DNA from: Podarcis vaucheri
Lineage: Eukaryota
Assembly: GCA_965113315.1 (NCBI GenBank)
Contig: OZ220363.1
DNA: 64,000 nt
Direction: 5' to 3' (one strand)
This document shows, one piece after another, positions 1,270 to 60,000 of the stretch. Each line of letters opens with the position of its first letter. Within the stretch, counting starts at the first letter, position 1. The notes beneath the pieces are model-generated. The model did no database searches and was not told where the DNA came from. It worked only from the letters and a program-made list of their open reading frames with translations. Both the position numbers and the translations under genes were made by a program.

Positions 1270-2186
1270 TACAACAATATGCATTGTTGTAGTTTACCTT
1301 AGACTGCCTGAAGGAACTGGAGAAGGCCTGCTCCATCCTCTTTCCCATTCACTCCCATGGGTTTTCCACTGATGTGCTGAACAGGACTGGATTGGAGGAT
1401 ATATCTCCCCAGTCAGAACCTTACCCACCCAGTGCACTGTCCCAGCCTCCAAGCTGGTCCTGCTTGTGGATTTCACAACTGATTGGTGAGGATGCTGGAC
1501 TGTGATGGGCCTTTTGACCAGATCCGGCGGGCTTCTTCTTACGTTCTTCTATCCTTAACCCACCCTCCATGTGCATGAGGAAGCACACAGTTCCTCCCCA
1601 TCTCCTAGTGAGCTGTCTCCTACCTGTAAACGTGGGGACGGGATGTCCAAATGTTGCCCAGGTACACACAGTCTTGCCCAGGTGAAAAACTGCATGCTTG
1701 ATTACTGCACTAAAGTAGGAAATCAGCTAGGCAGTTTTCACCTTCATGATCTGAGCACTCTCTACACAGGCAGCATTGGGATGTTCTGCTTTGGCAGGTG
1801 GAAGTGGTAGAGGGAGGGATGATGTGCTAAGCGTTTAGGATCATAATCATGGCTATCAGGCTTGGACTGCAACCCTTCCAACCATTGGCACTTATCTTAT
1901 CTGGACCTGCTTTTTACTCAAAAGTCTGCATGAGCGCATCCTTCTGGTAAGCTTTCCACTTTCCTAACGTATGCTTTGAAGTGCAGGAAGAGCAATGGAG
2001 AAAGCATGGTACATTGTTTCTTACACTAAGTATGTAACCTCTCACATGTGGGTGTGCTATTTGTGCCCAGCCAGTGGCTTCCTATCTACAATGGAGAGAA
2101 GGCAGATTGTGGGTGGAAACACGGGTCGGGTGGTGTAGGAGGATGCTGGCTAGTATGAGGAAGACGCCAGGCTCAATCCCTCCATA

Positions 2187-2540
2187 GGTAAAGGTAAAGG
2201 GACCCCTGACCATTATGCCCAGTTGTGGCTGACTCTGGGGTTGCGGCGCTCATCTTGCTTTATTGGCCAAGGGAACCGGCGTACAGCTTCCAGGTCATGT
2301 GGCCAGCATGACTAAGCCGCTTCTGGCGAACCAGAGCTGCACACGGAAACGCCGTTTACCTTCCCAGCAGAGCAGTACCTATTTATCTACTTGCACTTGG
2401 ACGTGCTTTCAAACTGCTAGGTTGGCAGGAGCAGGGACCGAGCAATGGGAGCTCACCCCGTCACGGGGATTCGAACCGCTGACCTTCTGATCGACAAGCC
2501 CTAGGCTCTGTGGTTTAACCCACAGCGCCACCCGCGTCCC
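2187..2540 (-). mobile_element. Sauria SINE, full length
   Basis: tRNA-like head with B box (ggttcgaatccc on minus strand), (ACCTTT)n tail, approximate TSD ccataggtaa. Confidence 0.88.
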
Positions 2541-3130
2541 TCTCCCCCCCATAGGTAATTGACCAATCTTTGGGTTAGTCACTGTTTCTCAGCCTAACCT
2601 ACCTTATAGGGTTCTTGGGGTAAATTAGACAAAGCCAATTTCACCACTCTGTGCAACTTGGAAGAAGAGTTGGATGGGTGTGGAACTGTCCCATCTACCC
2701 CCAGCCACACAATGCATCCGTCTTCCATAACACGGTGCATCCCAGATGTTGTCAGACTGCAACTCCCATTGACCTCGGCCAGCATGGCCAATAGTGAGAG
2801 ATGATGGGAGTTGCAGTCCAGCAGCTTCTGGAGGGCAGCAGGCTGGGGGAGACTGCACTAAGCAGTTGGTGGTTGCTGAAGTTCCCAAACTCACTCATTT
2901 GCCTGAGCATTTTTAGGCAGGAAGTCCTTGTTGCTGTTTCCCTCAGCTTCGCAGTTCCCAACACCAGTCCTGACCCCAAACGGGCAAGCTGTGTTTCTCT
3001 TACTGTCCTCTTCCTCTCCCATCCCGTCAGTCTGAAGAAAAACCCTGGCTATCCCCATCGTTGTCACACAAAGATTAGTCCATGCTGTTCCTCCCCCCCC
3101 CCCATTGGTCATGACAATTTCCACACTTAC

Positions 3131-3843: not shown

Positions 3844-4163
3844 CAGGGGTAGGAAAACTAAGGCCCGGGGGCCAGATCCAGCCCAATCACCTTCTAAATC
3901 CGGCCCATGGATGGTCCAGGAATCAGCGTGTTTTTACATGAGTAGAATGTGTCCTTTTATTTAAATGCATCTCTGGGTTATTTGTGGTGCCTGCCTGGTG
4001 TTTTTACATGAGTAGAATGTGTGCTTTTATTTCAAATGCATCTCTGGTTTATTTGTGGGGCATAGGAATTCGTTCATTATTTTTTCCAAAGTATACTCCA
4101 GCCCCCCACATGGTCTGAGGGGCAGTGGACCAGCCCATGGCTAAAAAAGGTTGCTGACCCCTG
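3844..4163. mobile_element. hAT-type MITE
   Basis: cagggg...cccctg ends, perfect 8-bp TSD gtctactg; same family inverted at 52887-53214. Confidence 0.88.
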
Positions 4164-13556: not shown

Positions 13557-13705
13557 GGCCCTCCAGCTGTTTTGGGACTACAAAACGGCCCTCCAGCTGT
13601 TTTGGGACTACAATTCCCATCATCCCTGACCACGGGTCCTGTTAACTAGGGATGATGGGAGTTGTAGTCCCAAAACAGCAGGAGGGCCACGTTTGGCCAC
13701 CACTG
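13557..13705. mobile_element. Palindromic hAT-like MITE with internal 30-bp duplication
   Basis: ggccctccagctgttttgggactacaa x2, inverted arm ttgtagtcccaaaacagcaggagggcc; related to 55736-55871. Confidence 0.75.
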
Positions 13706-21334: not shown

Positions 21335-21837
21335 CTAAGATATTGGATTAAAAATAGAGAAGAGTGAGAATTTCATAGCAAAACATAGCAAACATTCATA
21401 CACAAATTAAGTAATTTAATCGTGATCGAAACTTTGCTACATAATGGAAACCAGCTTAGAGTGTTAGCATTAGTTTCCATTGGCTGCCATTATGTTATTC
21501 AATTTTCTCAGTACTTCTTTCTTCAGCAACCTGCGGTTTCCTCAAATTCCTGCTTTTCAGCCAGTTCCTATTTAGTCCTAGTAATACGACTTGTATTATG
21601 GTCAGGTTGATTCAAATGTCTGTCTGTCTGCACACAGACAGCAGGCGCATGAAAAACTGAAAACGCTTGCTGCAAAAACTTCCAGATTGAAACCCTGAAA
21701 AAGTTCTCTGTTCATTAAAAGCCCAATTAATTGTCCCTTTGAAGGCAAGCATGTCCTGCATCCACCAAAAAGGGGGGAGGGGACTGACGCCGGTTGAGAG
21801 GCAATGAACACAGCCTGTAAGCTTATAGATGTAGTTT

Positions 21838-22195
21838 AAAGGTAAAGGTACCCCTGCCCGTACGGGCCAGTCTTGCCAGACTCTAGGGTTGTGCGCCCAT
21901 CTCACTCAAGAGGCCGTGGGCCAGCGCTGTCCGAAGACACTTCCGGGTCACGTGGCCAGCGTGACATCGCTGCTCTGGCGAACCAGAGCCGCACACGGAA
22001 ACGCCGTTTACCTTCCCGCTGGTAAGCGGTCCCTATTTATCTACTTGCACCCGGGGGTGCTTTCGAACTGCTAGGTTGGCAGGCGCTGGGACCGAACGAC
22101 GGGAGCGCACCCCGCCGCAGGGATTCGAACCGCCGACCTTTCGATTGGCAAGCCCTAGGCGCTGAGGCTTTTACCCACAGCGTCACCTGCGTCCC
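21838..22195 (-). mobile_element. Sauria SINE, young CpG-rich copy of a different subfamily
   Basis: Full length, perfect 11-bp TSD agatgtagttt. Confidence 0.9.
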
Positions 22196-32033: not shown

Positions 32034-32679
32034 CTGCAGAGTCAGGGGAAAACAAGAACAGTTATTTGCAGCACTTTTTTCCCTGCATGGAGTGTTTCAT
32101 ACCAAACTTGATTGCTTTTAACTGAAAGGGAAAAGAGGGCTTGTTTTCCAGTGGCCTACAAAAAGAATGGGATAATAGAAAACTGAAAGGAGGAACTATT
32201 CAGGCACAGAATATACCAGGAACAAATATTTCACTCCCCACTTTGATTATGCTGTGCCTACCACCATCTTGCCTTCTGCAAGGTGGTGCTATATCCTATG
32301 TTTGTTCGACATATTCAAATCAGGTAATACAATCATGAAAAGAATGAGAGCTCAAATCTATACATAATGGAAAGCAATTATGTGCAATTATATGCATGTG
32401 CATAATTGAGGCCTCAATGTCCTGTGTGCTTTCTTAAAGACATCTGATGATTGTCCAAACATTACTGAATTTCTATATTAAAAAATCACATATAGTATGG
32501 ATCTTACCTGTTCACACAAGTATTCTAAATATTTATTATTTTTTATGAAAAGGAATGTAATAATTGTGGAAACAAAATATCAAACACTTATCATTGTAGA
32601 GGCAAATGAGAGACGAAAGAGAGCGATAGACAAGAAGCTATCAAGAAAGAGGATTTTCAACAACAACCAAAGCACTCAC

Positions 32680-32991
32680 GTCACTCTGTAATTCATACGC
32701 TTTCCTGGCTTGGATGACATCATTCTGGTCAGGGAGACACGTCCATTCATGCAGGTAGCGGCGGTAATCAATGTCACTAACAAGCTTCTGACAGTTCTTG
32801 GCCAGCAAGACGGACAGCATGTCAACAGGGCTGTGGATCTTCGTCTTCAATTGATTATATACTTTCTTGTACTCCCGCTCACTTTGCATTTTAGCGACGT
32901 GCATAGCCAGTACCATCTTGGGATCGTCGTTAACGTCTCGGCATCCCACATGGTGTCCAAGTTGCTTACGGTAGCCTTCCTTGTATTTGTA
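32680..32991 (-). CDS. NEB: Nebulin super-repeat exon, 312 nt
   Basis: [34 protein letters not shown]...[11 protein letters not shown]. Confidence 0.95.
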
Positions 32992-33491
32992 CTAATAGGA
33001 TTTGAAAAAATACATATACAATTAGAATCTTCATCTTCGTTATCTCAGCGTGTAGAAAGATTGATAACATTGGCAAGAGTTTTCCATTTAACTCTGTTCC
33101 TAAGATGCTAAACAAAGGCTGCATTCATGCTCACATTTATATCACCTATCCTTTACCTGACCTTTTTTTGACCAACGGCAGAGCTTAATATTTCATCAGG
33201 ATAGTTGACAATTTATTTGGAGCACGTGAATAGCCTTCGCCAAGATGGCACCCTTCACATGTTTCGGACAACAACTTCTATCAGTCATGTTGGATGAGGC
33301 TGATGGATGTTTTAGTTCAAAACATCTGGAGGGCACTAGGTTAGTGAAAGCTGGCCCATAATGTCCTTATATCTTGCCTTGAAAATAGAACTTTAATATA
33401 TTTTCTGTTTCCTGCATTTTAATTTCATTAGATACAAAAGTCTAGAGACAATGGATTACCAAACACTATCAAATTCTATTTGCATACTTAC

Positions 33492-33596
33492 ATCACTGGC
33501 AATTTCTCTTGAGGCTTTGGCTGTTTTGATTGGGACTGCATCTGCTCTCAGGTCAATATATTTCTTCATGTCATCCCAAGATTCCCTATAAAGTTT
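33492..33596 (-). CDS. NEB: Nebulin super-repeat exon, 105 nt
   Basis: [35 protein letters not shown]. Confidence 0.95.
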
Positions 33597-33995
33597 CTAC
33601 AATAAAAAAACCAACAACATTATATTGTCATTATCCTCTTTCAGCACTTACATATATATGAAAGCTCACTGTCAATCAGCTTTTACTTTTTCCTAATCAC
33701 TCCTGTTTTTGCAGGTAAGAGTTACAGATTATCTCCATATAAAACTAGGTAAGGAAAAGTATTTAAACTGCATGTAAGTAATTATGGATAACAAGTGCTA
33801 ACACATCTGTTTTGTGGCATCTCCACAAGCACAATAGATTGCCAGTTTGCACCTATACAGGTACAATAACCCACAGAGAATTTACATGGGTCCTTGCTGC
33901 ATAATGAACTTGTAACATCCAAAGCCCCCTTCAGCTGAGTAACTGAAGAAGGTTGTAGAGTTGTATCATAAGAAGAATGGTAGTGATTTACTTAC

Positions 33996-34100: not shown

Positions 34101-34291
34101 CTGAAAAAAACATCGAAATTATCTTGTAATTCCTTTTGCACCAGTGCTCATATTCCTACATAATTTCTCTTTAACTGTAGGAACATGAATAACTTTTCTT
34201 TTAATACAAATAGATGCTTCATGCTACAAACTGATAGGGAGGTTGGTAGCATACTTAAAATAATGTCACATTGCTGAAAGGAGATACATAC

Positions 34292-34495
34292 AAGACTCAG
34301 TTGCTCAGCGTTAGTTTTGGCAAGGACAACTTCAGGCGTGTCAACGATGTTGGTAAATTTCAAACGATCCCGAGGAGTGCGATAAACGTTGTCACTCAGA
34401 ATTTCCTGTGCATATTTCACCTTCTTCACTTCTGGAGACTCATGTGGGATCCATCCAACCCCCCGGAGCCATTCCAGATCTGATTTATACACAGC
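34292..34495 (-). CDS. NEB: Nebulin super-repeat exon, 204 nt, WLRGVGW
   Basis: AVYKSDLEWLRGVGWIPHESPEV...LAKTNAEQLSL. Confidence 0.95.
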
Positions 34496-35148
34496 CTATG
34501 AGAGAAAATTTCAGAGAGGGAGAGCAAGATATTTCAGTTCAATCCAAGGAAATACTCTATGTGGTAAATAGAATGAATGCAACTTCAGAAAGTCAGGACA
34601 AACTTGTCTCAGTTACTTCATCAGGATCTAAGCAGTACTATCTCTCTGGACTAGGCCACAATGTTTCTTTGACCTCCAGTCATATTTCACACCAGCATTT
34701 ATAGCTTCGATCAGCACTATGCTGGCTGGGGAGTTGTGGACCAAAACATCTGGAGAGTTCCAGACTTGTGTAGATTGGGCTAGATAGAGTGGGCAGAAAG
34801 ATCATCCAATCCATACATATGATGGATTCGGTTATGGATTCATTAGCTATTTTTAGATATGCCAAGTCTATCACATCACTCTTGTCTGCATGATGTGTTG
34901 GACATTCTGAATTAAAAATCTTTCAGTTCTTCCTCCCAAGGTACTCATGATGAAATCAAGTGAAGATTAAATTACGTGAAAATGTGACAAGGCCAGTTTT
35001 CATTAACACAACAAAGTAAAAATTAAGAAAAGGAAATCTTCCACAACTATCTATCACGATGTCTCTTTTGCCTTCTGTCCTAGCAGTAATGTGTGTTTGC
35101 AAAGGACAGATATACTTACATCGCTTTGCAAAGGACAGATATACTTAC

Positions 35149-35460
35149 ATCGCTCTGTAGTTCGTAGGCCTTCCTTGCCTGGATCACATCATTCTGGTCG
35201 GGCAGACAAGACCACTGGTGCAGATGTTGACGATAGTCCACCTCACTTACTAAAGACTGGCATTGCTTGGCTGCTTGGACAGACAGCATGTCCACCGGTA
35301 TAGTAATATTGGCTTTGGATTTGTTGTAAGCTTGCTTATACAACCGGTCATTCTGCATCTTCAATACTTTGGCAGCAAATGAAAGTTTAGGGTCCTCCTT
35401 CACTGAAGGGCATCCAATGTAGTGGCCTTTCTGTTTCTCATGAGCTTCTTTGTACTTATA
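35149..35460 (-). CDS. NEB: Nebulin super-repeat exon, 312 nt (donor site duplicated)
   Basis: [34 protein letters not shown]...[11 protein letters not shown]. Confidence 0.94.
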
Positions 35461-36587
35461 CTGAGCAGGAAAGAGAATTGGAAGTTACAGTTATTTGAAC
35501 AATTTCCAGGAGATAAGTTAGAAATTCTTGATGCTTCAGTTTTTAAGGGATTTAGCTATGGAATAGTGAGAGGGTAAATAAAACATAGTAAGGATCCCTA
35601 ATTCTGTCTTTATGAAATATTTACCTGGATTTGTTATTAGGGATGAGACGGAAATGCGGGTCATTTTGCATTTAAAGTCACACTTCCATAATTCACACTT
35701 TATGAATACTGTATACAGACATGTATACGTATTAGGAAAAATTCACATGAAAATCCTAATGAATTTTTATTAGAACTACAAAAAAACCCAAAAAACAAGT
35801 CAATGTGGAAATGTGGAGAATTGATAGTTTTGCCACCCCAATTGTATACATCCTAAGCCTAAGTAAAAAGATCTATTTTTTCAAATAACTGAATAATATA
35901 TATGTGGTTGCAAATTTTACAAAGTCACAATGTCTTTTGAAAAGCACAGCCCACTTTGTGTAATAGTGAAAAGCTACTGATGAAATTTGGCTATCCAGAG
36001 TTCAGAAACGGCAATCATATGCATTTTTACTTGGAACAAAGCCCAGTTGGGCATGGTGGAATTTACCTATCGGCGTAAAAATGCATAGGATGGTGTGCTC
36101 AGGGTGCTAAACTTGATTTGGAAACTATGCAAGATTATTTTATTATTATCTTATTAATTTATATACCACCCTATACCCAGAGGTCTCTGACTTTCCACAA
36201 CTTAAGAGAAAACTTTAAAGTGGTTGTAAAGAAAGGGGAGGGGGGGAGAAACACTTGGGTGTTTTTAACAACAGGAAGCAACAAATTTAATTATTGTAAA
36301 GTCTTTACAGTGCCAAGTATCTCCAAATTTATCACAGTTAGCTCTTTGGCATTTAAAATAATGGACTATATTAAACTTTCTGATTGTTTGAAAGAAGACA
36401 CTTTCATAAATTGTAAAAGAATGGAAAGAATGATGTCATGGACATGCAGTAGAGGAACTTGTATAAGGCTGGATAAATACGGTTTTGAGGCTGAATTATC
36501 AATTGTTCATATACTTTGACATGTGCACTCATCATATGAAAAGATATAGCCATTTGAGAAGTAAATGTTAAATAAAAGAGATTGTAC

Positions 36588-36695: not shown

Positions 36696-37344
36696 CTGCA
36701 ATCAGAATAAAATTCACAGTTTTCAATGTAATAAAATACATGATGAAAACCAACTATAGACATTCCTCAATCAACACTGCGATCCAATGCAAGTTTACTT
36801 AGAAGTAAATCTGTGCTCAATGGGCCTTACTCCGAAGTAAATATGGAATGCATAGGACTGCAGCCAAAAGAGTAAAAATATGAATATACAAACACTGCAT
36901 AAATATAGCTTATACAGATATATTTGTTTGCATGCATGCATACGTCTTATATAACTGACGCCGACAATTTATTTGGGGCCTAGATAAGAAACAGAATGAT
37001 TGTGGGGAAGTACAATTTAGTAATAATAAAGCTTGATAGGCAGAAGATATTGAAGAGAGACTGACATTATCCAAATCACAAAATCATCAAAGCGTGTAAC
37101 AATGAAACACTCTGACAACGTTGGGATTGGGAACAAGTCGGTCTCTTTTTAATATCTTCTGTCCATGAAGTTCAGTTAATTCTCTTTATTACGTCTGAAT
37201 AAAAACTCACAAGTAAGAGCCAAATGCCTTCTTGTTTTTAAGAACAGTTAATGATGGGAAGTTGCATTTGACACGGCTGAATAGGTACAGATGCATCACT
37301 ACACACATTCCACTCATGGGTATATAGTTGGTTAATTCTCTTAC

Positions 37345-37797: not shown

Positions 37798-38565
37798 CTG
37801 CAAAGGAAACAATTGGGCTATTAACATTATGGCTGAAAATGTTTCTTCTAATTTATTAAGAAGGCTGTTGCTGTGGCTCGACCCGTCATAATACAGAACT
37901 GCTCAGCTTCCATGGCTGGCCAATCACAAGAAGTGCATACCACTAATGTGGGTATTAATAAACAGCCCTCTTTTTATCCCCTTTCAAGCTGTATATGGCA
38001 GAACAACAACAGTACTGGCCATGCGTAATACAGATTCTAGTAAATAACTCCAGCTCAGGCAATCCAGTCAAGGAAAAATAGGCTGCTTAATGCAGCTTAA
38101 ATTAATTCTTTTCACACCTAAAATTCTCTGGAATAGAAAGTAAAAGACCAATGGAAATGGACACCTCTAGAAGTGTTTAGTTCTATGCAGCTGCCACAAA
38201 TTCAGGTTTTGGTGCCTTACTTCTTCAGATCATGGTAGAGTCAATTAGCCTTGTATGCATGGATACATGTGTTGAATTGAGGTCTCAATGCCCCCTTGTG
38301 TTCTTTCTTAAAGAAGCATGATGATTGTCCAAACAATACCAAATTTATATGTTAAAAAATTCACATGTACTATGATATGTGACATGTGTTCACAGAAGTA
38401 AAACATTTATTACTTTTTAATGAAAAAATATGTAAAAATTGTGGAGACAAAATATAATTGTAGAGCCAACAGTAATAATCCACCAAATGTCATGACAGAG
38501 GAAAGAGAGTGATAGACAAGAAGCCATCATAAAAGAGATATTGCAACAATAACAAAATCACTCAC

Positions 38566-38877
38566 ATCGCTCTGTAATTCATAGGCTTTCCTGGCTTGGA
38601 TGACATCATTCTGGTCAGGCAGGCAGGTCCATTCATGCAAGTAGTGGCGGTAATCAATGTCACTAACAAGCTTCTGACAGTTCTTGGCCAGCAAGACGGA
38701 CAGCATGTCAACAGGACTGTGGATCTTCGTCTTCAATTGATGATATACTTTCTTGTACTCACGGTCACTCTGCATTTTAGCTACGTGCATAGCCAGTACC
38801 ATCTTGGGATCGTCGTTAATGTCTCGGCATCCCACATGGTGTCCAAGCTGCTTACGGTAGCCTTCCTTGTATTTGTA
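38566..38877 (-). CDS. NEB: Nebulin super-repeat exon, 312 nt
   Basis: [25 protein letters not shown]...[11 protein letters not shown]. Confidence 0.95.
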
Positions 38878-39430
38878 CTGATGGGATTTGAAAAAATACA
38901 TATACAATTAGAATCTTCACCAAAGGTATCTCAGATTCAGAGCTTTTTTTCAGCTGCAACTCACTTCTGGCACTTCTGAGGTGGGTGCCATTGTATTGGT
39001 AATGTAAATATTCAGCACATGCATAGATCTTTGAATTTCACACATGCTTCATCTGACATTTTTTTGACCAACAAGATGAAAGCTTTGGTCCTGAGAGATT
39101 AATATTCTACTTCAGAAACCTTCATCAGGATGCTGGACATTTTACTTGGAGCATATTTAAAGCAAACAGCAGCCTTCGCCAAGATGGCACCCTTCACATG
39201 TTTTGGACAACAACGTCCATCAGTCATGCTGGATGAGGCTAATGGATGTTTTAGTTCAAAACATCTGGAGGGCACTATGTTAGTGAAAGCTGGCCCATAA
39301 TGTCTTTATATCTTGCCTTGAAAATAGAACTTTAATATATTTTCTGTTTCCTGCATTTTAATTCCATTAGATACAAAAGTCCAGAGACAATGGATTTCCA
39401 AACACTATAAAATTCTATTTGCATACTTAC

Positions 39431-39535
39431 ATCACTGGCAATTTCTCTTGAGGCTCTGGCTGTTTTGATTGGGACTGCATCTGCTCTCAGGTCAATATTT
39501 TTCTTCATGTCATCCCATGATTCCCTATAAAGTTT
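39431..39535 (-). CDS. NEB: Nebulin super-repeat exon, 105 nt
   Basis: KLYRESWDDMKKNIDLRADAVPIKTARASREIASD. Confidence 0.95.
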
Positions 39536-39817
39536 CTACAATAAAAAACCAACAACATTATATTGTCATTATCCTCTTTCAGCACTTATATATTTATGAA
39601 AGCTCACTGTCCATCAGCTTTTACTTTTTTCTAATCACTCCCGTTTTTTGCAGGTAAGAGATGCCTTAAACATTACAGATTATCTACATATAAAACTATG
39701 TAAGGAAAAGTATTTAAAGTGCATGTAAGTAATTATGGATAACAAGTGCTAACACATCTGTTTTGTGGAATCTCCACAAACACAATAGATTGCCAGTTTG
39801 CATACAAACAGCTAAAT

Positions 39818-39998
39818 AAATTCCTTCCAGTAGCACCTTAGAGACCAACTAAGTTTGTCATTGGTATGAGCTTTTGTGTGCATGCACACGAAAGCTCATA
39901 CCAATGTCAAACTTAGTTGGTCTCTAAGGTGCTACTGGAAGGAATTTTTTAATTTTGTTTCGACTATGGCAGACCAACACAGTTACCTACCTATAACT
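39818..39998. mobile_element. Penelope-like element remnant forming a 130-bp palindrome
   Basis: Arms 39818-39882 and 39883-39947 with 2 mismatches; tail gactatggcagaccaacac; 12-bp direct repeat agctaaataaat at the edges. Confidence 0.75.
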
Positions 39999-40254: not shown

Positions 40255-40335
40255 CTACAAAAATACAGAATTATCTGTTAATTCCTTCCGCAGAATAATT
40301 AAAATAATGTCACATTGCTGAAAGGAGTTACATAC

Positions 40336-40539
40336 AAGACTCAGTTGCTCAGCGTTGGTTTTGGCAAGGACAACTTCAGGCGTGTCAACGATGTGGGTAA
40401 ATTTCAAACGATCCCGAGGAGTGCGATAAACGTTGTCACTCAGAATTTCCTGCGCATATTTCACCTTCTTCACTTCTGGAGATTCATTGGGGATCCATCC
40501 AACCCCCCGGAGCCATTCCAGATCTGATTTATACACAGC
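40336..40539 (-). CDS. NEB: Nebulin super-repeat exon, 204 nt, WLRGVGW
   Basis: AVYKSDLEWLRGVGWIPNESPEV...LAKTNAEQLSL. Confidence 0.95.
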
Positions 40540-41190
40540 CTGTGAGAGAAAATGTCAGAAAGGAAGAGCAAGATATTTCAGTTCAATTCAAAAGAAATAC
40601 TCTATGTGATAAATACTGTAGAATGAATGGAACTTCAGAAAGTCAGGACAAACTTGTCTCAATTACAGCATCAGGATCTAAGCAGTACTATCTCTCTGGA
40701 CTAGGCCACAATGTTTCTTTGACATCCAGTTGTATTTCACACCAGCATTTATAACTTCAATCAGCACAATGCTGGCTGGGGAGTTGGGGGCCAAAACATC
40801 TGGAGAGTTCCAGTCTTGTGTAGATTGGGCTAGATAGAGTGGGCAGAAAGATCATCCAATCCATACATATGATGACAGCACTCCAATCGGTTATGAATTC
40901 ATTAGCTATTTTTAGATATGCCAAGTCTATCACATCACTCTTGTCTGTGTTGGACATTCTGAATTAACAATATTTCAGTTCTTCCTCCCAAGGTACTCAT
41001 GATGAAATCAAGTGAAAATGTGACAAGGCCAGATTTAATTAATAAAGCAACTACAAATGTTATCCGGGAAACAAAGTAAAAATTAAGAAAAGGAAATCTT
41101 CCACCACTATCTACCATGATGTCTCTTTTGCCTTCTGTCCCTGCAGTGCTGTGCTGTTTGTTTGGCTTTGCAGAGGACAGATATACTTAC

Positions 41191-41502
41191 ATCGCTCTGT
41201 AGTTCGTAGGCTTTCCTTGCCTGGATCACATCATTCTGGTCGGGCAGACAAGACCACTGGTGCAGATGTTGACGATAGTCCACCTCACTTACTAAAGACT
41301 GGCATAGCTTGGCTGCTTGGACAGACAGCATGTCCACTGGTATAGTAATATTGGCTTTGGATTTGTTGTAAGCTTGCTTATACAACCGGTCATTCTGCAT
41401 CTTCAATACTTTGGCAGCAAATGAAAGTTTAGGGTCCTCCTTCACTGAAGGGCATCCAACGTAGTGGCCTTTCTGTTTCTCATGAGCTTCTTTGTACTTG
41501 TA
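41191..41502 (-). CDS. NEB: Nebulin super-repeat exon, 312 nt
   Basis: YKYKEAHEKQKGHYVGCPSVKEDPK...[11 protein letters not shown]. Confidence 0.95.
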
Positions 41503-42377
41503 CTGAGCAGAAAAGAGAATTGGAAGCTTAAGTAATCTGACCAATTCCAAGGAGAAATGTTAATAGAAGTTCTTGGTATTTCAATTTTGAAGGGATTCGA
41601 CTATGGAATATTCAGGGGGTAGATAAAGCATAGTAAGGCTTCCTAATTCTGTCTTTGTATTATAAAATATTTACTTGGACTTGCTATTAAGGGATGAGAG
41701 GGAAATGCAGTTCAGTTTGCAGTTAAAGTCACACTTCCGTAGTTCACCCTTTTTGAAATGAGAACCAAAAGAAACACAACTATGCTTTCAAATTCACATT
41801 CTCCAAATTTTGCAGTGCACATATGCGGCCGAGTAGTGCATGCAGAAATGGATATACTTGTGTAAAGTATGCATATGAAAACATGCATTAGTGAAAATCA
41901 TACAAAATTTCATTAGGGAAAATGGCTTCACAAAAATATGTATATTAGGCAAAATTGCACACAAAAATTATATTAGGAGAATTTCTCGCTAAGATGCTGA
42001 TGAATTTTCATGAAAGCTTTTTTAAAAAATACAGGCCAATGTGGAAATGTAATAATTTACTATAAATGGCTGTAAAATCGGATTTAATATGTCTGCTTGA
42101 AAATATGCCTGCCATTTTGGGATTTGGGGACCAGTTAAACTAAGATTGTGAAAAATAGCTCATCTTGGCTTAACTGGCAATAGCCAATGCTGGAAGAAAA
42201 GATCTCTACAGCTTGAGAACCAATGTAAGCAAATTTCAGGATGTATCTGTGCCAACAGTCTAAAAACTTAAAATGCTAATCTAAAATCAGTTTCCTAATA
42301 TTTACCAAAATATTAGCCACCTGTTTAGCCTTATAGGAAATAACATTACAGAAATAATATACAACAGTTGACAGTAC

Positions 42378-42993: not shown

Positions 42994-43348
42994 TGTAACG
43001 GTAAAGGGACCCCTGACCATTAGGTCCAGTCGTGACCGACTCTGGGGTTGCGGCGCTCATCTCGCTTTACTGGCCAAGGGAGCCGGCGTACAGCTTCCGG
43101 GTCATGTGGCCAGCATGACTAAGCCGCTTCTGGCAAACCAGAGCAGCGCACGGAAACGCCGTTTACCTTCCCGCCAGAGTGGTACCTATTTATCTACTTG
43201 CACTTTGAAGTGCTTTCAAACTGCTAGGTTGGCAGGAGTAGGGACTGAGCAACGGGAGCTCACTCCATCACGGGGATTCGAACCGCCAACCTTCCGATCG
43301 GCAAGTCCTAGGCTCTGTGGTTTAGACCACAGCACCACCCATGTCCCT
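42994..43348 (-). mobile_element. Sauria SINE, full length
   Basis: Aligns to 2187-2540; 12-bp TSD aacatataatgt. Confidence 0.9.
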
Positions 43349-46113: not shown

Positions 46114-46425
46114 ATCACTCTGTATGTCATACACTTTCTTAGCCTGAATGACGTCATTCTGGTCAGGCAGGCAGGTCCATTCATGCAGGTAGTGGCGGTA
46201 ATCAATGTCACTAACAAGCTTCTGACAATTCTTAGCCAACAGGACTGATAGCATGTCAACTGGACTATGGATCTTCGTCTTCAGTTGATTAAATACTTTC
46301 TTGTACTCCCGATCGCTCTGCATTTTAGCTACATGCATAGCCAACACCATCTTGGGATCATCTTGAAGGTTTCGGAACCCGATATAGTGCCCTTTCTGCT
46401 TCTCATATGCTTCTTTGTATTTAAA
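46114..46425 (-). CDS. NEB: Nebulin super-repeat exon, 312 nt (acceptor duplicated by TE insertion)
   Basis: [25 protein letters not shown]...[11 protein letters not shown]. Confidence 0.94.
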
Positions 46426-46437
46426 CTGCAAAAGAGA

Positions 46438-46784
46438 TGAAAGTTGAAACAATATTATGTTTAAATTAAGTAGTTAAGAATTTGACAAAAATATTTAAAG
46501 CCTAAGACATAATATTTGAAAATTACAAAATAAGAATTGAAATAAGGTAATAAATTGCTGCTTATAAGTTTATAACTGGGAACGCAGGAAAGGGAGATGT
46601 GAGGAAGTCCAAAAGTTATGGAAATATGATTTATGGATAGCTGTTTTTGTTGTATTTTTTCTATTCTATGTTTATCTTTTTGTTTTTCTCTGTTTTTCTT
46701 TGTTTGTTATATCTTGGTGATGGTTTATTATATGTTTGGTGATTTCTTGTTTAAAACTTGCAATAAATATCTTTTTTAAAAAAA
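46438..46784 (+). mobile_element. 5'-truncated retroelement 3' end (L1/Tx1-like UTR) inserted at a splice acceptor
   Basis: AT-rich, AATAAA then A-tail, 16-bp TSD taaactgcaaaagaga (46422-46437, 46785-46800). Confidence 0.8.
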
Positions 46785-47101
46785 TAAACTGCAAAAGAGA
46801 AAAGAAACACTTTTTAGAGCTATTATTATTTATTAATTAAAAGCATTGGGCATGCTTGCAGAGACTAATAAGAATGGCAATCCAAAACTTTTGTAGGGCA
46901 TCAGGCTGGGGAATATTGCTCTTGTGTACTACAAATGTTGAAGATATCAATATAGGGTCAGTCGAAAGGACCTGCATCGCCACCCTAGAAGACTGAACAC
47001 CTTTTCTTTGAATTAATTATTTCTATAATAGTCATTTTGAAAACAACAGGGTTGTTACTTGCATTTCTCCGCAGAAGTGTGTAATCAACACATCCACTTA
47101 C

Positions 47102-47209
47102 ATCACTAGCTATGTCCCTTGATGCCTTTGCAGATCTGATTGGAATTGCATCAGCTCTCAAGTCATATCCTTTCTGCTTCGCCTCTTCCCATCCCTCGAT
47201 ATAAAGTCT
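47102..47209 (-). CDS. NEB: Nebulin super-repeat exon, 108 nt
   Basis: [36 protein letters not shown]. Confidence 0.95.
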
Positions 47210-48521: not shown

Positions 48522-49378
48522 TCTGGGTTATAAACATAGAGATGAAACATTAAATATGTGTATACTAAAGGACCAATACATCACAGTTACAACCACTATA
48601 ACTCCTGCTTTTGCAGCTACATATTCATTTAGCCCAAACTTGATGATCCTATGCAGTCTGATTCACACTCCCTTGTTCATTGCTTGGCCTCTTGTCACAT
48701 GTTTAATTACTTGGGAGCAAGCCCAATTGAACAAAGTGCTACTTCTGAGTAAATATCTATAGAACTGTGCCATTGATGTCTCATTCCCGACATTGCTTAG
48801 AATGCTAATGGAATCTGCCTCTACTGAATTTCACCTTGGATTTTGGTGTTTCACGTTATCGTAACGGAACTAAAAGTATCTGGTGATATATTTCCAAAAC
48901 GTTTGCAAGGTATCTTACAAATAATTATTTTTAAATTGTTCATTAAAAAAACTAGCTTATTTTTTCAGAATTGCACAATTTTGCTACTGCATTTAAAAAT
49001 ATACATGATATAAATATTGTATATGTTTCTAAAAACTGTTCTTTTAACTTAAAAAAAATTCCCAATTAAAAACATACCTTTTGTTTTATGTGTCATTGGG
49101 GTGGTTTGCTGGTTTTTGTTTTAGGTTTACTTTTAAAATTATGCACAAAAGCCTTTACTGACAATACAAAACCCGGAGTTTGTTCCAGGGTTCAAACGGA
49201 AGGCAACCCAAGGAATAGTGAACAATAACAGAGAGGAATGGATGGAATCCATTCATCTCCACTTATAACACATTGATTTCCAGGTATATATGAACTGTCT
49301 CCATAAAAAAGCATATCTGGATGATTTGGGGAAAGACACAAATTCACTGGCTGTGTTTATTCTGCATAGCTTACTCAC

Positions 49379-49690
49379 ATCACTCTGGAGATCATAGGCC
49401 TTTCTAGCTTGGATGACGTCATTCTGATCTGGAAGGCAGGTCCACTGGTGCAGATAATGACGGTAATCAATATCACTGACCAACTTCTGGCAATTCTTAG
49501 CGTGCAACACTTCCAGCATGTCCACAGGGCTAATATACTTAGTCTTCCATTTCTCAAAGTCCTTCTTATACTCCCTCTCACTCTGCATTTTGGCTACATT
49601 CATAGAATGCACAAGTTTCGGGTCATCTTGCACACTGCGTGCTCCAATATGGTGGCCAAGCTGCTTGCGATAGCCTTCTTTGTATTTGTA
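49379..49690 (-). CDS. NEB: Nebulin super-repeat exon, 312 nt
   Basis: [25 protein letters not shown]...[11 protein letters not shown]. Confidence 0.95.
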
Positions 49691-50927
49691 CTGAAATAGA
49701 TATACATGTGTAAACCATCTACCCATAAGATTATTCATCAGATACCTGCATTGGAAAATCCCACATTCTGAGAGGATTGTGACAGTATTTTTCTCATCTA
49801 GATAGCATCTTTTGTTCCTATGCTTGTCCCTTCATCTTCCTATTTCATCGTACATATTTTCTAATAATCTTTAAAGATTTTGTTCCTTTGGCAAGGTAAG
49901 CTTTTCTTCTTCTTCAATCCTTTATTATTCATGGATAGGAATGAAAAAGCTCTTTAGGTAGTTCCGATGTCTTGGGTAATGCTTAAGCACCTCCCGCCAT
50001 CTTTCCAGTTTCAAAACTACTTTGCTATGTGGCGATCAAGTGGGGGCTTTCATGAACCACGAGTCCATGGTCCCTTGGAGATGCAGAGCTTGTTCACAGT
50101 TCCTTGAATCTCAGCTCTAAATTAATCCCAATATATTTTCCCCCTGGATTTCATCTCTTTTTTTTTTCTTTTCTTTTTTAATCTATTATGCAGCTGCCTT
50201 CAAATATTTTTCCTTTCTTTTCCAGTAAGTTTTAAAGAAACATAGTAAACAAAGCAAACAAACAAGGAAATACATCTGGCTAAGTCCATTTCACCACACT
50301 GTGAAAATGTCCGGTGGGTTGATAACAGTTCCAAAATGGGGCAAAAAGCCCAAGTTTCTGCTTGCATTATTCTTTTCTTCCCATGAATGTTTACAGCAAG
50401 TGATCTTATTAATATTCCACACAGTAAACATTTCCTGCTAATAACAGCTGAGCTGTAGTTAATACATAATTAACTTCGACTTTGAGTTTTCTTTTAACTT
50501 GCCCTTTCACTAACCATGAAATAATTGTTTTAGGGTTTCATTGTAGCTTGTATCACATTAAAACCCTGTGAAACATTACTGTCTTCCTATATTGTGCCTA
50601 AGACTCTCCTCGTGCCACTCTGCTTTCTATTTACTACATCTCCTCAGGCACCTTTTTCAATACTCTGTTCTTAATGCTACTAAAGAACCCTGTTCTTTTG
50701 TCCCCATAATTCACATAATAATTTAGTCTCTTAGCAAATGAAACCAAAATCGTGGAAGGAAATGTAGCTTCTCTCTAATACTGCCTTTCATGGATGCCTA
50801 AAACATCCACCACAGTCACACATACTGTAGAATTGAGACCATAGTTTCAATTCTTTTTTTTATTTAGAGCAAGAAATGTTTTCCCCTTAAAAAAAAATGC
50901 TATACATAGAACATATTGGGTACACAC

Positions 50928-52886: not shown

Positions 52887-53214
52887 CAGGGGTCAGCAAA
52901 CTTTTTCAGCAGGGGGCTGGTCCACTGTCCCTCAGACCTTGCGGGGGGGGGGGGTTGGACTATATTTTGGGGAAAAAATATGAACGAATTCCTATGCCCC
53001 ACAAACAACCCAGAGATGTAATTTAAATAAAAGCACACATTCTACTTATGTAAAAATACCAGGCAGGCCCCACAAATAACCGAGAGATCTATTTTAAACA
53101 AAAGGACACATTCTACTCATGTAAAAACACACTGATTCCTGGACCATCCACGGGCCGGATTTAGAAGGTGATTGGGCCGGATCCAGCCGCCAGGCCTTAG
53201 TTTGCCTACCCATG
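52887..53214. mobile_element. hAT-type MITE (reverse-orientation relative of 3844-4163)
   Basis: TSD gggtcagt/gtgtcagt (7/8 match); internal sequence is the reverse complement of 3844-4163. Confidence 0.85.
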
Positions 53215-53485
53215 GTGTCAGTCCTCTGTACCAGTGACCACTGCCACCATGTTTGCTTTTTGTTACTTCACATTGTGCAACTGCAACACTTGAAAGTTGT
53301 CTGGAATTAGAGGTGGGTTAGGAGAAAAGAGCCAAGATTGATGGAGCAGGCTGGGGGAAGGAAGGAATCAGTTCTACACTCCCTTGTATCCCACCATTTG
53401 ACACACACACACACACCCCTCCCCCCCCCCCCGATTTTATGCCTTATATTATGTTTAGTTGTGCCCAAACATAAATAGTACTCAC

Positions 53486-53797
53486 ATCACTCTGGAGATC
53501 ATAGGCCTTTCTAGCCTGGATGACGTCATTCTGATCTGGAAGGCAGGTCCACTGGTGCAGATAATGACGGTAATCGATATCACTGACCAACTTCTGGCAA
53601 TTCTTAGCGTGCAACACTTCCAGCATGTCCACAGGGCTAATATACTTAGTCTTCCATTTCTCAAAGTCCTTCTTATACTCCCTCTCACTCTGCATTTTGG
53701 CTACATTCATAGAATGCACAAGTTTCGGGTCATCTTGCACACTGCGTGCTCCAATATGGTGGCCAAGCTGCTTGCGATAGCCTTCTTTGTATTTGTA
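53486..53797 (-). CDS. NEB: Nebulin super-repeat exon, 312 nt
   Basis: Protein identical to exon 49379-49690. Confidence 0.95.
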
Positions 53798-54196
53798 CTG
53801 AAATAGATATACACGTGTAAACCGTCTACCCATAAGATTATTCATCAGATAGCTGCATTGGAAAATCCCACATTCTGAGAGGATTGTGACAGTATTTTCC
53901 CCATTTAGATAGCATCTTTCTTCCTTATCTTTTTGCCACTTCATTTTCCTAATTCCTCATACAGATTCTCTAATAATCTTTAAAGATTTGTTTCCTTTAG
54001 GAAGGTATTTTTTATTATTATTCATGAATCTATTAAAAATGGACCAGTCATTCTGTTTTGTGTTGTTTTCAGAAGGGGCAGCTTTAAAGAAAAACCACAG
54101 AAAAAAAGAAAACAAATGCGAGCATTAGCCAAATCTAAGTGTAAGCTTGAATGACAAGCCTGGCTTGGATGACAGGCCAAAGTTCCATGCAATTCC

Positions 54197-54555
54197 TGGC
54201 ACTGTGGTCTAAACCACTTAGTCTAGAGCTTGCCAATCAGAAGGTTGACAATTCAAATCCCCGCGACGGGGTGAGCTCCCGTTGCTCTGTCCCAGCTCCT
54301 GCCAACCTAGCAGTTCGAAAGCATGTCAAAGTGCAAGTAGATAAATAGGTACCGCTCCAGCGGGAAGGCAAACAGCGTTTCCGTGCGCTGCTCTGGTTTT
54401 TCCAGAAGTGGCTTAGTCATGCCAGCCATATGACTCGGAAAAACTGTCTGCGGACAAACATCAGCTGCCTCGATCAGTAAAGCGAGATGAGCACCACAAC
54501 CCCAGAGTCATTTGCGACTGGACTTAACGGTCAGCAGTCCTTTACCTTTACCTTT
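54197..54555 (+). mobile_element. Sauria SINE, older copy
   Basis: Reverse complement of 2187-2540 type; ends cctttacctttacctttt. Confidence 0.85.
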
Positions 54556-55296: not shown

Positions 55297-55735
55297 CTGA
55301 AAAAATAGTAAATAGTAAGGAAAAAAAGTAAATAAATTATTTGATAAAGGTAGCAGCTGCCAAAAATGGTAATTCTTTCATTCATTTGTTTGTTTCTAAA
55401 ATCTCTTAAGAAGCCCTTCACAATCATAAAACTGTTGAAGTTTCCAAATTGCCTCCAAGGGCAGCCCCACATAGAGAACATTGCCGTAATCCAATCTGGA
55501 AGTTACCAGAGCATGGAGTACTGTGGCCAAGTCTTCTCTGTAGTTGGGCCGTAGTTGGCATATCAGCTGTAGATGTAAATGAACTCCTAGGCACTGAGGC
55601 TACTTGGGCCTCCACTGACAGAGATGGGTCCAGAACATCACAATGCTTACACCTGCTCCTTCCAGAGGAACTTTGGATACATAAGACCCCCATCTTTTCC
55701 TGGTTCCACTTCAATTTACTGATCAGCATCTAGTC

Positions 55736-55871
55736 CAGGCATAGGCAAACTCATCCCTCCAGATGTTTTGCGACAACAACTCCCATCATCCCTAGCTAGC
55801 AAGACCAGTGGTCAGGGATGATGGGAATTGTAGTCTCAAAACATCTGGAGGGCCGAGTTTGCCTATGCCTG
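55736..55871. mobile_element. hAT-type MITE
   Basis: 17-bp perfect TIRs caggcataggcaaactc / gagtttgcctatgcctg; perfect 8-bp TSD atctagtc. Confidence 0.92.
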
Positions 55872-56375
55872 ATCTAGTCCATTACCATCTCCAAGCACCA
55901 GGCTAGCACTTCAGTTTCCTCTCGTGCTTCAGATGGAACAGAGAGCAATAGCTTGGTGCCCTCCACATATTATTGGTATTTCACTCCAAATCTCCTTTTG
56001 AGAGGGGTCCCAACTGTTTGCAGATATATATTAATTAACAAGACGGGGGAAATGCTCATGGTACTAAACAAAGCCCATCATATCCACGTTCTGGAAATGG
56101 CTCTGATTCAACCAGTATGAAAATGGTTGCTGAAAGAGTATGAAAATAAGAATGAATGGAATGTGCCTTCTTAGAACAAAAACGAAGCTCTTAATTAGTT
56201 AATTAGGGTCAGATAACAATCATAGAGATAAATAGTTATAATGATAAAATCACTAGGCAAATTCTCAAAGTGATCAGAGCCTGCATATCCCCAGTCACAG
56301 CATTGCTAAACCAGCAAGATTTCTTTATATATTTGTTCATATGAGTTTTAAGGAAGGGGCATGAATGAAACTCAC

Positions 56376-56579
56376 ATGGTCCATAACTTCAGAATTATGC
56401 TTTGCCAAAGCCATAGGCATAGAATCAATGGGACTTGTGAATTTGAATTTGTCAGGATGCTGTCTGTAGATGTAGTCACTCAAGATCTGAGAGGCTCTCT
56501 TGTTCTTCTCAGCTTCCAAGGAACCACTTGGAGTCCAGCCAATGCCCTTTAGCCATTCAAGATCTGCTTTATACATATT
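56376..56579 (-). CDS. NEB: Nebulin super-repeat exon, 204 nt, WLKGIGW
   Basis: [23 protein letters not shown]...LAKHNSEVMDH. Confidence 0.95.
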
Positions 56580-56787
56580 CTGTTTGAAAAGAAACAAGCA
56601 GGGAGGACAATAGATCCATGAAAACCTTCCATTGCAATTGAGGATTTTTGCCTTCATAAATTATAATCCACATCAACTAAAGAGACTATTGTTACACTGT
56701 CAATTTGTGTCAGCACAGATTAAACAAGCAATAACTTTTCAACTTTTTTTTTACTCTTTTAATATATAGTACGCATGCTATCTAAAC

Positions 56788-57090
56788 AGAATGCAGCTAT
56801 TAGGCTGATGAGTGGGGCAGCCCAATCGAACCACCTGCCATCAATCCTGAAGGCACTTCACTGGCTGCCGGTGAGCTGCTGGGCCCAATTCAAAGTGTTT
56901 GTATTAACATACAAAGCCCAAATGGCTTGAGACCCAAGTACCTAAAGGAGCGCTTCCCTGATTTCAACAATCTCAGGTCCTATAACTGGCAGGGGATTCC
57001 CTGCTGTTGCTGCCTTCGGTGGGTGCTAAACTGTTGGTGATGCCCGGTCTCAGGGCTTCCTTGGTAGTGGTTCCCCCTTTGTGGAGCAAA
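56788..57090 (+). mobile_element. L2 LINE ORF2 fragment
   Basis: Degenerate NAAIRLMSG...ILKALHWLPV...QFKVFVLTYKA; truncated at 59686 in block D. Confidence 0.7.
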
Positions 57091-58596: not shown

Positions 58597-58730
58597 AAAA
58601 CAGTTGAAGTTTCCAATTTGTCCTCATGCCCACACAGAGCACATCACAATAATCCAGACTGGAAGTTACCAGAGCATGGAGTATTGGGGTCAGGTCTTCC
58701 ACCATCTCCAAGCACCAGTCAATCTCCTCT
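58597..58730 (-). mobile_element. L2 LINE ORF2 fragment (paralogue at ~55428-55520)
   Basis: LTPILHALVTSSLDYCDVL...WKLQL resembles the L2 HALVTSRLDYCN motif. Confidence 0.7.
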
Positions 58731-59204
58731 GATGCTTCGGATGGAACAGAAAGAGATTGATGGGTACATTCCACATATTAGTGGTATTTCACTTCAAATC
58801 TTCTGGTGACAGGTCTGAAGATTTCAGATAGATATTAAATAACATTGGGGGGGGGGGACGACACTCATGTTCTCAAACAATGCCCTCCCATAACTACTTT
58901 CTGGAAATGGCCCTGATCCAACATTTATGAAAACCAACATTTTGCTACAAAATGGTTGTTGAAAGAGTATGAAAATAAGAATGAATGGAATGTGCCTCCT
59001 TAGCACAAAAATGAAACTCTTAATTAGTTAATTAGGGTCAGATAACAATCATAGAGATAAATAGTTATAATGATAAAATCACTAGGCAAATTCTCAAAGT
59101 GATCAGAGCCTGCATATCCCCAGTCACAGCATTGCTAAACCAGCAAGATTTCTTTATATATTTGTTCATATGAGTTTTAAGGAAGGGGCATGAATGAAAC
59201 TCAC

Positions 59205-59408
59205 ATGGTCCATAACTTCAGAATTATGCTTTGCCAAAGCCATAGGCATAGAGTCAATGGGACTTGTGAATTTGAATTTGTCAGGATGCTGTCTGTAGAT
59301 GTAGTCACTTAAGATCTGGGAGGCTCTCTTATTCTTCTCAGCTTCCAAGGAACCACTTGGAGTCCAGCCAATGCCCTTTAGCCATTCAAGATCTGCTTTA
59401 TACATATT
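59205..59408 (-). CDS. NEB: Nebulin super-repeat exon, 204 nt, WLKGIGW
   Basis: Same protein as 56376-56579. Confidence 0.95.
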
Positions 59409-60000
59409 CTGTTTGAAAAGAAACAAGCAGGGAGGACAATAGTTCCATGAAAACCTTCCATTACAAATGAGCATTTTTGCCATCACAAATTATAATCCAC
59501 ATCAACTATAGAGACTGTTGTTACACTGTCAATTTATGTCAGCACAGATTAAACAAAAGAAACAAACTTTTTCAACTTTTTTTTTACTCTTTTAATATAT
59601 AGTATGCATGCTATCTAAATAGAATGCAGCCATTAGGCTGATGAGCAGGGCAGCCCAATCGAACCATCTGCCATCAATCCTGAAGGGGATGAGTTAGGAC
59701 CACTTTCTTGCTCACCATTAGGTGGGACCTAGGCTTTGGGCTATGACTTGGCATACCCCTTGGAACAGGCAGGTCCCTCAAGGTTGAAGTTAGCTTCCCA
59801 CTCTTCTGACTTATGAATAATATGTTCCCTCATTTGATCCATCACTCCAGTCTCACCTTTTTGTTCTAAGATCCAGGCACAATTATCACTATTTGCTGTT
59901 TAGAGACAGGCTTTTCCCCCATAAGGAATTGTGAATAAAATCCACCAACCCTGGGATAGTCTCATGCTTAAAAGCCTTTAAGAAAAAATAAGATACTTAC

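What the first reader, a model, noticed from the sequence alone, without database searches (positions are those of the whole stretch)
46422..46812. Retro-insertion landed in a splice acceptor; its TSD duplicates the acceptor
Seen: a 347-bp A-tailed insert flanked by a 16-bp TSD (taaactgcaaaagaga). On the transcribed strand this reads tctcttttgcag|TTTA, i.e. the 3' splice site plus the first exon bases. The original long pyrimidine tract (gtgtttcttttctcttttgcag) now precedes the decoy copy at 46788, 363 nt upstream. The real exon must use insert-derived sequence (gtttcaactttca) and presumably an insert-derived branch point. Splicing to the decoy is in frame but hits TAA at 46672-46674. Inference: either TE sequence was exapted as a splice signal in an essential muscle gene, or a poison-acceptor/NMD isoform exists.
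Basis: partly seen in the sequence, partly recalled or inferred. Interest (0 to 1): 0.7.

Follow-up and report, generated by a model that had tools for sequence, protein, structure and literature searches.

The report
Retroposon duplicates a nebulin splice acceptor
A 347-base insert, likely the tail of a jumping gene, sits at the splice signal in front of an exon of a reptile's muscle gene nebulin and that signal is now present twice; the copy next to the exon is probably still the one used, and the same layout is already known from merle dogs.

Summary
A 347-bp insert (46438-46784, + strand; AATAAA, A7 tail, 24% GC, T-rich 3' half) lies between two exact 16-bp repeats that carry the 3' splice site of a 312-nt nebulin exon on the minus strand. 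The anatomy fits the 3' UTR of a lizard L1 inserted antisense; the family could not be tested.

The upstream (decoy) acceptor is the top-scoring of 4159 unassigned AGs in the window and outscores the exon-adjacent copy. Both alternatives read in frame into early stops.

Most likely the exon-adjacent copy wins by exon definition, using an insert-derived branch point. The sequence after the decoy is less exon-like than all 65 real exon starts, no good donor follows it, and it would make a 675-nt exon. No read-level data were obtained, so junction use, fixation and the empty allele are untested, and a rare damaging allele or a leaky poison isoform stay open. 'Exaptation' is not shown.

The layout matches the canine Merle SINE in PMEL and resembles NF1 acceptor insertions: a new member of a known kind.

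The parts
47102..47209 (-). Upstream nebulin exon (108 nt), donor GAT|GTAAGT after 47102
46785..46800 (-). Target-site duplication, upstream copy: decoy acceptor (AG at 46790-46789, would start an exon at 46788), joined to the original 15-nt pyrimidine run
46438..46784 (+). 347-bp insert, antisense to the gene; likely 5'-truncated L1-type 3' UTR (24% GC)
   Evidence: compared
46762..46784 (+). AATAAA (46762-46767) and short A7 tail (46778-46784)
46641..46760 (+). T-rich segment (63% T) with short imperfect tandem repeats; A-rich on the gene strand, predicted to pair loosely with the decoy
46672..46674 (-). In-frame TAA reached if the decoy is used (558 nt before the exon end)
46576..46603 (-). 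Third, insert-borne acceptor-like site: CTCAC branch motif at -25, 12-nt pyrimidine run, CAG; exon would start at 46575, 150 nt upstream of the true start, in frame, stop at codon 2 (46572-46570)
46465..46477 (-). Candidate insert-derived branch points for the exon-adjacent acceptor (A at 46474, -49; A at 46466, -41), predicted only
46422..46437 (-). Target-site duplication, exon-adjacent copy: acceptor AG at 46427-46426 plus first 4 exon bases
46114..46425 (-). Nebulin exon, 312 nt, 104 aa, one of 11 paralogous 312-nt exons in the window; donor GAT|GTACGT

Best explanation
A 347-bp insert, likely a 5'-truncated L1-type retroposon placed by target-primed reverse transcription, lies antisense at the 3' splice site of a 312-nt nebulin exon, its 15-16-bp flanking repeat carries the acceptor twice, and the exon-adjacent copy is probably the one used in most transcripts. 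Steps: (shown) two identical acceptor cores 363 nt apart, both alternative acceptors leading to early stops; (inferred) nick at GTTT/AA just inside the exon and priming on the A tail; (inferred) with both flanking introns above 250 nt the exon is defined across its own 312 nt, so the AG next to the exon is chosen and borrows a branch point from the insert; (inferred) the orphaned original acceptor is mostly ignored because intron-like U-rich sequence follows it, no usable donor lies downstream and it would give a 675-nt exon. Rare mis-spliced products would be removed by nonsense-mediated decay. This is tolerance, not demonstrated exaptation.
For: Anatomy. Lizard clade-1 L1 3' UTRs are 345 +/- 118 bp, 22.5-40.2% GC, carry T-rich or C-rich repeats and end in AATAAA + poly-A (PMC5381506); the insert is 347 bp, 24% GC, T-rich and ends the same way. 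The exon-adjacent acceptor scores at the 85th percentile of 65 real acceptors of this gene (66th with the shorter model), has YTNAY at -49 and -41 and a 74-nt AG-free zone. Joining 47102 to 46425 gives ...IASD|FKYK, the nebulin repeat motif in register. The 50 and 100 nt after the decoy and after the third site are less exon-like than 65 of 65 real exon starts, while 39 and 38 of 65 score at or below the true start. The best donor inside the insert scores 0.28, against a minimum of 1.31 for real donors. Exon-centric proximity and a limit near 500 nt for exon definition: PMC9225289. Short-tail Merle alleles are reported to splice normally (PMC6091007).
Against: No junction or genomic reads were obtained. 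The decoy is the stronger site (97th percentile; first of 4159 unassigned AGs), keeps the original upstream intron sequence and closes a 313-nt intron, near the 250-nt threshold. In PMC9225289 the preference for the upstream 3' site is only 'significantly reduced' under exon definition, not said to be reversed. All 4 Alu insertions at NF1 acceptors and the FAM161A SINE caused exon skipping, though these were found through disease. No second copy of the insert was found, and 23 of 66 acceptors carry an endonuclease-like hexamer with at most 1 mismatch, so the nick motif discriminates little. The splice models are home-made from 65 exons of this one gene.
Confidence: 0.55

Rival explanations
1. 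Young, rare damaging allele: the insertion is polymorphic, shifts splicing to the decoy or causes skipping of the 312-nt exon, and persists only as a recessive loss-of-function allele in the sequenced animal.
For: Repeats are 16/16 identical, consistent with recency. The decoy outscores the true site. LINE insertions in Anolis are mostly low-frequency singletons under negative selection (PMC5389967 abstract). Small NEB variants are recessive in people (PMC12402328 passages). NF1 and FAM161A precedents skip the exon.
Against: The tail is only A7, whereas de novo NF1 insertions had 60-120-bp tails; this hints at some age, though native lizard tail length was not checked. The exon-adjacent acceptor remains a good site.
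Confidence: 0.2
2. Leaky, Merle-like allele or poison isoform: the insert is fixed or common, and a real fraction of transcripts uses the decoy (46788) or the insert-borne site (46575), gains an early stop and is degraded, lowering nebulin output.
For: Both sites score within the range of real acceptors (97th and 34th-42nd percentile) and both lead to stops more than 450 nt before the next junction. In Merle, an acceptor inside the element is used.
Against: Intron-like sequence follows both sites; there is no donor to close a small exon. Nothing suggests regulation or conservation.
Confidence: 0.18
3. The insert is not an L1 tail but another A-tailed passenger (a retroposed mRNA 3' end or 3' transduction), or the structure is an assembly error.
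For: No ORF2 remnant in any frame and no second copy in the window or in metagenome contigs; no repeat library could be searched.
Against: Length, GC, T-rich segment and AATAAA-A tail fit published lizard L1 3' UTRs. A mis-assembly would hardly yield a clean A-tailed unit with an exact flanking repeat. A retroposed mRNA end would still be an L1-machinery insertion with the same splicing consequences.
Confidence: 0.07

Closest known systems
Canine Merle SINEC_Cf insertion in PMEL (PMC6091007, PMC7349775)
   Same: Antisense retroposon at an intron-exon boundary, 15-bp target-site duplication containing the original acceptor, a cryptic acceptor inside the element, and reported normal splicing when the oligo(dT) is short.
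   Different: Here the element is L1-3'UTR-like rather than a tRNA SINE, the tail is only about 7 nt, both alternative products carry early stops rather than an in-frame 52-aa insertion, the gene is a sarcomere gene, and splicing has not been measured.
L1-endonuclease-dependent Alu insertions at NF1 3' splice sites (PMC3219598) and the FAM161A SINE of dogs (PMC3976383)
   Same: Retroposons entering the AG or pyrimidine tract of acceptors, with 11-17-bp duplications at the NF1 intron 14 acceptor.
   Different: Those are disease alleles with exon skipping; here a complete acceptor core stays attached to the exon and branch-point motifs come with the insert.
Lizard (Anolis) clade-1 L1 3' UTRs (PMC5381506)
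   Same: Length, low GC, T-rich repeat, AATAAA + A tail.
   Different: No sequence comparison was possible; that paper describes L1 duplications as typically under 10 bp, while this one is 15-16 bp (the NF1 cases show 10-17 bp).
Duplicated splice-site competition (Reed and Maniatis as cited in PMC9225289; F7 intron 7 minisatellite, PMC1557585)
   Same: Identical splice-site cores compete in cis; in F7 only the exon-adjacent donor copy is used.
   Different: Those concern engineered duplications or a donor minisatellite; the classical in vitro rule favours the upstream acceptor, which here is the decoy.
Introner-type intron gain with a TSD-derived AG (PMC11282704)
   Same: A target-site duplication supplies an acceptor AG so that the element is spliced out.
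   Different: No new intron is made here; the element enlarges an existing intron (313 to 676 nt), has no terminal inverted repeats and is A-tailed.

Membership tests
L1-type TPRT insertion | Short flanking target-site duplication | tested here: met
   16/16 exact; 2 of 2000 shuffles
L1-type TPRT insertion | 3' AATAAA followed by an A tail abutting the duplication | tested here: met
   AATAAA 46762, A7 46778-46784
L1-type TPRT insertion | Nick at a TTTT/AA-like site | tested here: inconclusive
   GTTT/AA, one mismatch, but 23 of 66 acceptors have such a hexamer; consensus as given in PMC13295347
L1-type TPRT insertion | Empty site in other individuals or species | not tested
   No read-level result was obtained; no genome held
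Lizard L1 family (3' UTR) | Sequence similarity to an L1 consensus or dispersed genomic copies | not testable with these tools
   No repeat library or host genome; none in the window or in metagenome contigs
Lizard L1 family (3' UTR) | Low-GC 3' UTR of about 200-570 bp with T- or C-rich repeats | tested here: met
   347 bp, 24% GC, 63% T over 46641-46760
Lizard L1 family (3' UTR) | ORF2 remnant at the 5' end | tested here: inconclusive
   No open frame in six-frame translation; not expected if truncation lies within the UTR
Bov-B / Sauria SINE (RTE clade) | 3' end in (CAA)n or (ACCTTT)n | tested here: not met
   Insert ends in AATAAA-A7; tails from PMC13295347
Merle-type acceptor insertion | Antisense element at the boundary with the acceptor in the duplication | tested here: met
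Merle-type acceptor insertion | Cryptic acceptor inside the element is used in transcripts | not tested
   Site predicted at 46575; no RNA evidence
Poison (NMD-coupled) splice isoform | Early stop more than 50-55 nt before a downstream junction (rule recalled) | tested here: met
   558 and 456 nt
Poison (NMD-coupled) splice isoform | Isoform is produced, regulated or conserved | not tested
   No junction data
Exapted TE splice signal | Fixed, used as branch point and conserved | not tested
   Only motif prediction
Nebulin | Nebulin repeats PF00880 in phase-0 exons | tested here: met
   27 of 27 and 24 of 24 hits carry PF00880; 66 modelled exons, all multiples of 3 without stops

The most novel reading that the evidence does not exclude
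The insertion is fixed in a lizard lineage and rescues itself: the antisense L1 3' UTR hands the exon-adjacent acceptor a new branch point while its U tail and A-rich repeat bury the stronger original acceptor, so a transposon fragment has become an obligatory splice signal of nebulin, and the locus is a natural in vivo test of duplicated-acceptor choice.
Probability: 0.2. Interest if true: 0.5.

Novelty: new member of a known kind. Interest (0 to 1): 0.3.

Why it matters
If fixed and cleanly spliced, it is a natural case in which the weaker of two duplicated acceptors wins in a gene whose loss causes muscle disease in people, a neat test of exon definition and of a branch point borrowed from a transposon. 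If polymorphic, it is a candidate recessive muscle allele in a wild reptile. Either way the kind of event is known from dogs and people, so the gain is one more instructive example rather than a new mechanism.

Tried and rejected
Own-genome search: no genome held. Laying reads gave no result, so junction use, zygosity and the empty allele remain open.

Run search: 24 runs listed, 20 hold the stretch or part of it, no RNA holder listed. Word shares cannot settle presence of the insert: 26.5% of words overlap it (sampling sd 3.6 points), so the 0.76 of run X2 is within noise of an empty allele. The 0.84 of X1 may be the source sample, and insert words can come from other copies.

A specific helix masking the decoy was considered. 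Whole-insert shuffles looked striking (2 of 200 and 0 of 200 as closed; z -1.9 with 8 of 200 shuffles on a region chosen after the fact). But shuffling only the A-rich segment in place masks as well (102 of 150; duplex 80 of 500), partners change with the span allowed, 7 of 64 real acceptors are as closed, and the computed pre-insertion state was already fairly closed (0.30 versus 0.23). In the first sliding-window test 8 to 36 of 64 real acceptors were less open than the decoy. The effect is compositional and weak; rejected as an evolved structure.

A small cryptic exon within the insert: no adequate donor. Recursive splicing: the decoy is AG|TT, not AG|GT (sequence).

Protein searches found no named lizard nebulin and no protein showing the insert read through (only proteins up to 2000 aa; 6 of the 48 distinct hits were read by eye). 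No exact match of a 22-mer of the insert in metagenome contigs. No Rfam match. No earlier findings.

Three of 69 candidate exon starts were dropped from the training set because the acceptor was not clearly resolved.

Full report
Context. The window holds part of a nebulin gene on the minus strand. Six-frame and tblastn scans gave 69 candidate exons, of which 66 were modelled; all are multiples of three without stops, and 11 are 312 nt long. All hits of two protein searches carry Pfam PF00880, and the named ones are mostly labelled nebulin. A repeat with four copies in the window ends, on the minus strand, in ACCTTT units, the tail reported for Sauria SINEs (PMC13295347 passages), so the host is probably a squamate; a lacertid is a recalled guess. 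No genome is held for the window.

Observation. An exact 16-bp direct repeat lies at 46422-46437 and 46785-46800. Outside one tandem array it is the only exact 16-mer repeat within 1 kb in the window, and 2 of 2000 shuffles of the region contain one. Between the copies are 347 bp: 24% GC, A-rich at the 5' end, a short purine run, a 120-bp segment with 63% T, AATAAA and A7. It is the only such A-tailed, repeat-flanked unit in the window. On the gene strand the repeat is the last 12 intron bases plus the first 4 bases of the 312-nt exon 46425-46114. The intron is 676 nt, or 313 nt without the insert and one copy. The decoy is in frame and stops at 46674-46672.

What the insert is. Lizard clade-1 L1 3' UTRs measure 345 +/- 118 bp (194-570), have 22.5-40.2% GC, carry T- or C-rich repeats and end in AATAAA and poly-A (PMC5381506, passages and section 7). 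The insert fits all of these. It has no open frame, as expected for a copy truncated within the UTR, and it lacks the RTE-type tails. A nick at GTTT/AA, three bases into the exon, would give a 15-bp duplication; this motif is weak evidence, as 23 of 66 acceptors carry a similar hexamer. This exon starts with TTT, where 9 of the 10 paralogous 312-nt exons start with a Tyr codon; that may have improved the target (speculation). No second copy was found in the window or in metagenome contigs, and no repeat library was available, so 'L1 3' UTR' is a resemblance, not a tested membership.

Three acceptors. With a weight matrix trained on the other 65 acceptors, the decoy scores at the 97th percentile, the exon-adjacent copy at the 85th (66th with the -20..+3 model), and a third site inside the insert, exon start 46575, at the 42nd (34th). 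The decoy is the best of 4159 AGs not assigned to modelled exons. The third site has CTCAC at -25 and a 12-nt pyrimidine run and hits a stop at codon 2. The exon-adjacent copy has an 8-nt pyrimidine run (15 at the decoy), YTNAY motifs at -49 and -41 inside the insert, and 74 nt free of AG. Only this junction gives the in-register repeat ...IASD|FKYK. Both alternative stops lie more than 450 nt before the next junction, so such products would be NMD targets (rule recalled).

Why the weaker copy probably wins. A Markov model trained without any 312-nt exon rates the 50 and 100 nt after the decoy and after the third site below all 65 real exon starts, and the true start as typical. No donor in the insert reaches the weakest real donor, so the decoy would need a 675-nt exon. 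Both flanking introns exceed 250 nt (313 to the decoy, 1000 downstream; coordinates), where exon definition favours the sites closest across the exon and exons above about 500 nt are poorly included (PMC9225289, passages and section 9). Against this, that paper finds a general preference for upstream 3' sites that is only reduced under exon definition, and 313 nt is near the threshold. Folding predicts the decoy to be somewhat more paired than the true site (0.23 versus 0.56 unpaired), but controls show this is compositional and within the range of working acceptors (7 of 64 as closed). All of this is prediction; no RNA or genomic reads were obtained.

Comparison. The dog Merle allele has the same layout: an antisense SINE at the intron 10-exon 11 boundary of PMEL, a 15-bp duplication containing the acceptor, a cryptic acceptor in the element, and normal splicing proposed for short tails (PMC6091007 passages; PMC7349775 passages and section 6). 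Four Alu insertions at NF1 acceptors and a FAM161A SINE caused exon skipping (passages). LINE insertions in Anolis are mostly rare and selected against (abstract only), and small NEB variants are recessive in people (passages), which keeps the rare-allele reading alive. Introners use TSD-derived AGs but create new introns (passages). Searches for this lizard nebulin case (listings) showed no report; the library lacks most subscription journals, and I did not read supplements.

Verdict. Real feature, correctly described; a retroposon insertion with high probability (about 0.9), an L1 tail likely (about 0.75). Most likely tolerated through use of the exon-adjacent acceptor (0.55); rare damaging allele 0.2; leaky or poison isoform 0.18; other origin 0.07. 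New member of a known kind; interest 0.3.

Noticed in passing
window 35096-35154 (minus strand, donor after 35149): A perfect 29-bp tandem duplication doubles the donor of another 312-nt nebulin exon (GAT|GTAAGT at 35149 and again 29 nt into the intron, out of frame). The paralogous exon ending at 41191 has a single copy, so the gene holds a second duplicated splice site with an internal single-copy reference. These two were the only duplicated boundaries among 132 tested.
   Followed up: partly
window 32392-33869 / 38263-39819, 34248-35706 / 40292-41757, 55884-56853 / 58701-59686, 49372-49916 / 53479-54024: Intron-containing segmental duplications of nebulin super-repeat blocks at 83-94% identity, reminiscent of the human NEB triplicate region.
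   Followed up: no
window 2186-2541, 21837-22195, 42995-43348, 54197-54553: Four copies of a ~350-bp SINE-like repeat, 75-90% alike; the one at 2186 ends in ACCTTT units on the minus strand, as Sauria SINEs do.
   Followed up: partly
window 13587-13688, 37032-37170, 39815-39950, 55730-55877: Short palindromic elements (MITE-like) in introns; 13586-13686 and 55755-55855 are 90% alike.
   Followed up: no
window 3844-4163 and 52887-53214: Two 87% alike copies of a ~320-bp repeat in opposite orientation, each with an internal 64-71-bp tandem unit.
   Followed up: no
window 62512 (minus strand): Second-strongest unassigned acceptor-like AG of the window, not followed by a nebulin-like frame; a possible cryptic or unmodelled exon.
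   Followed up: no
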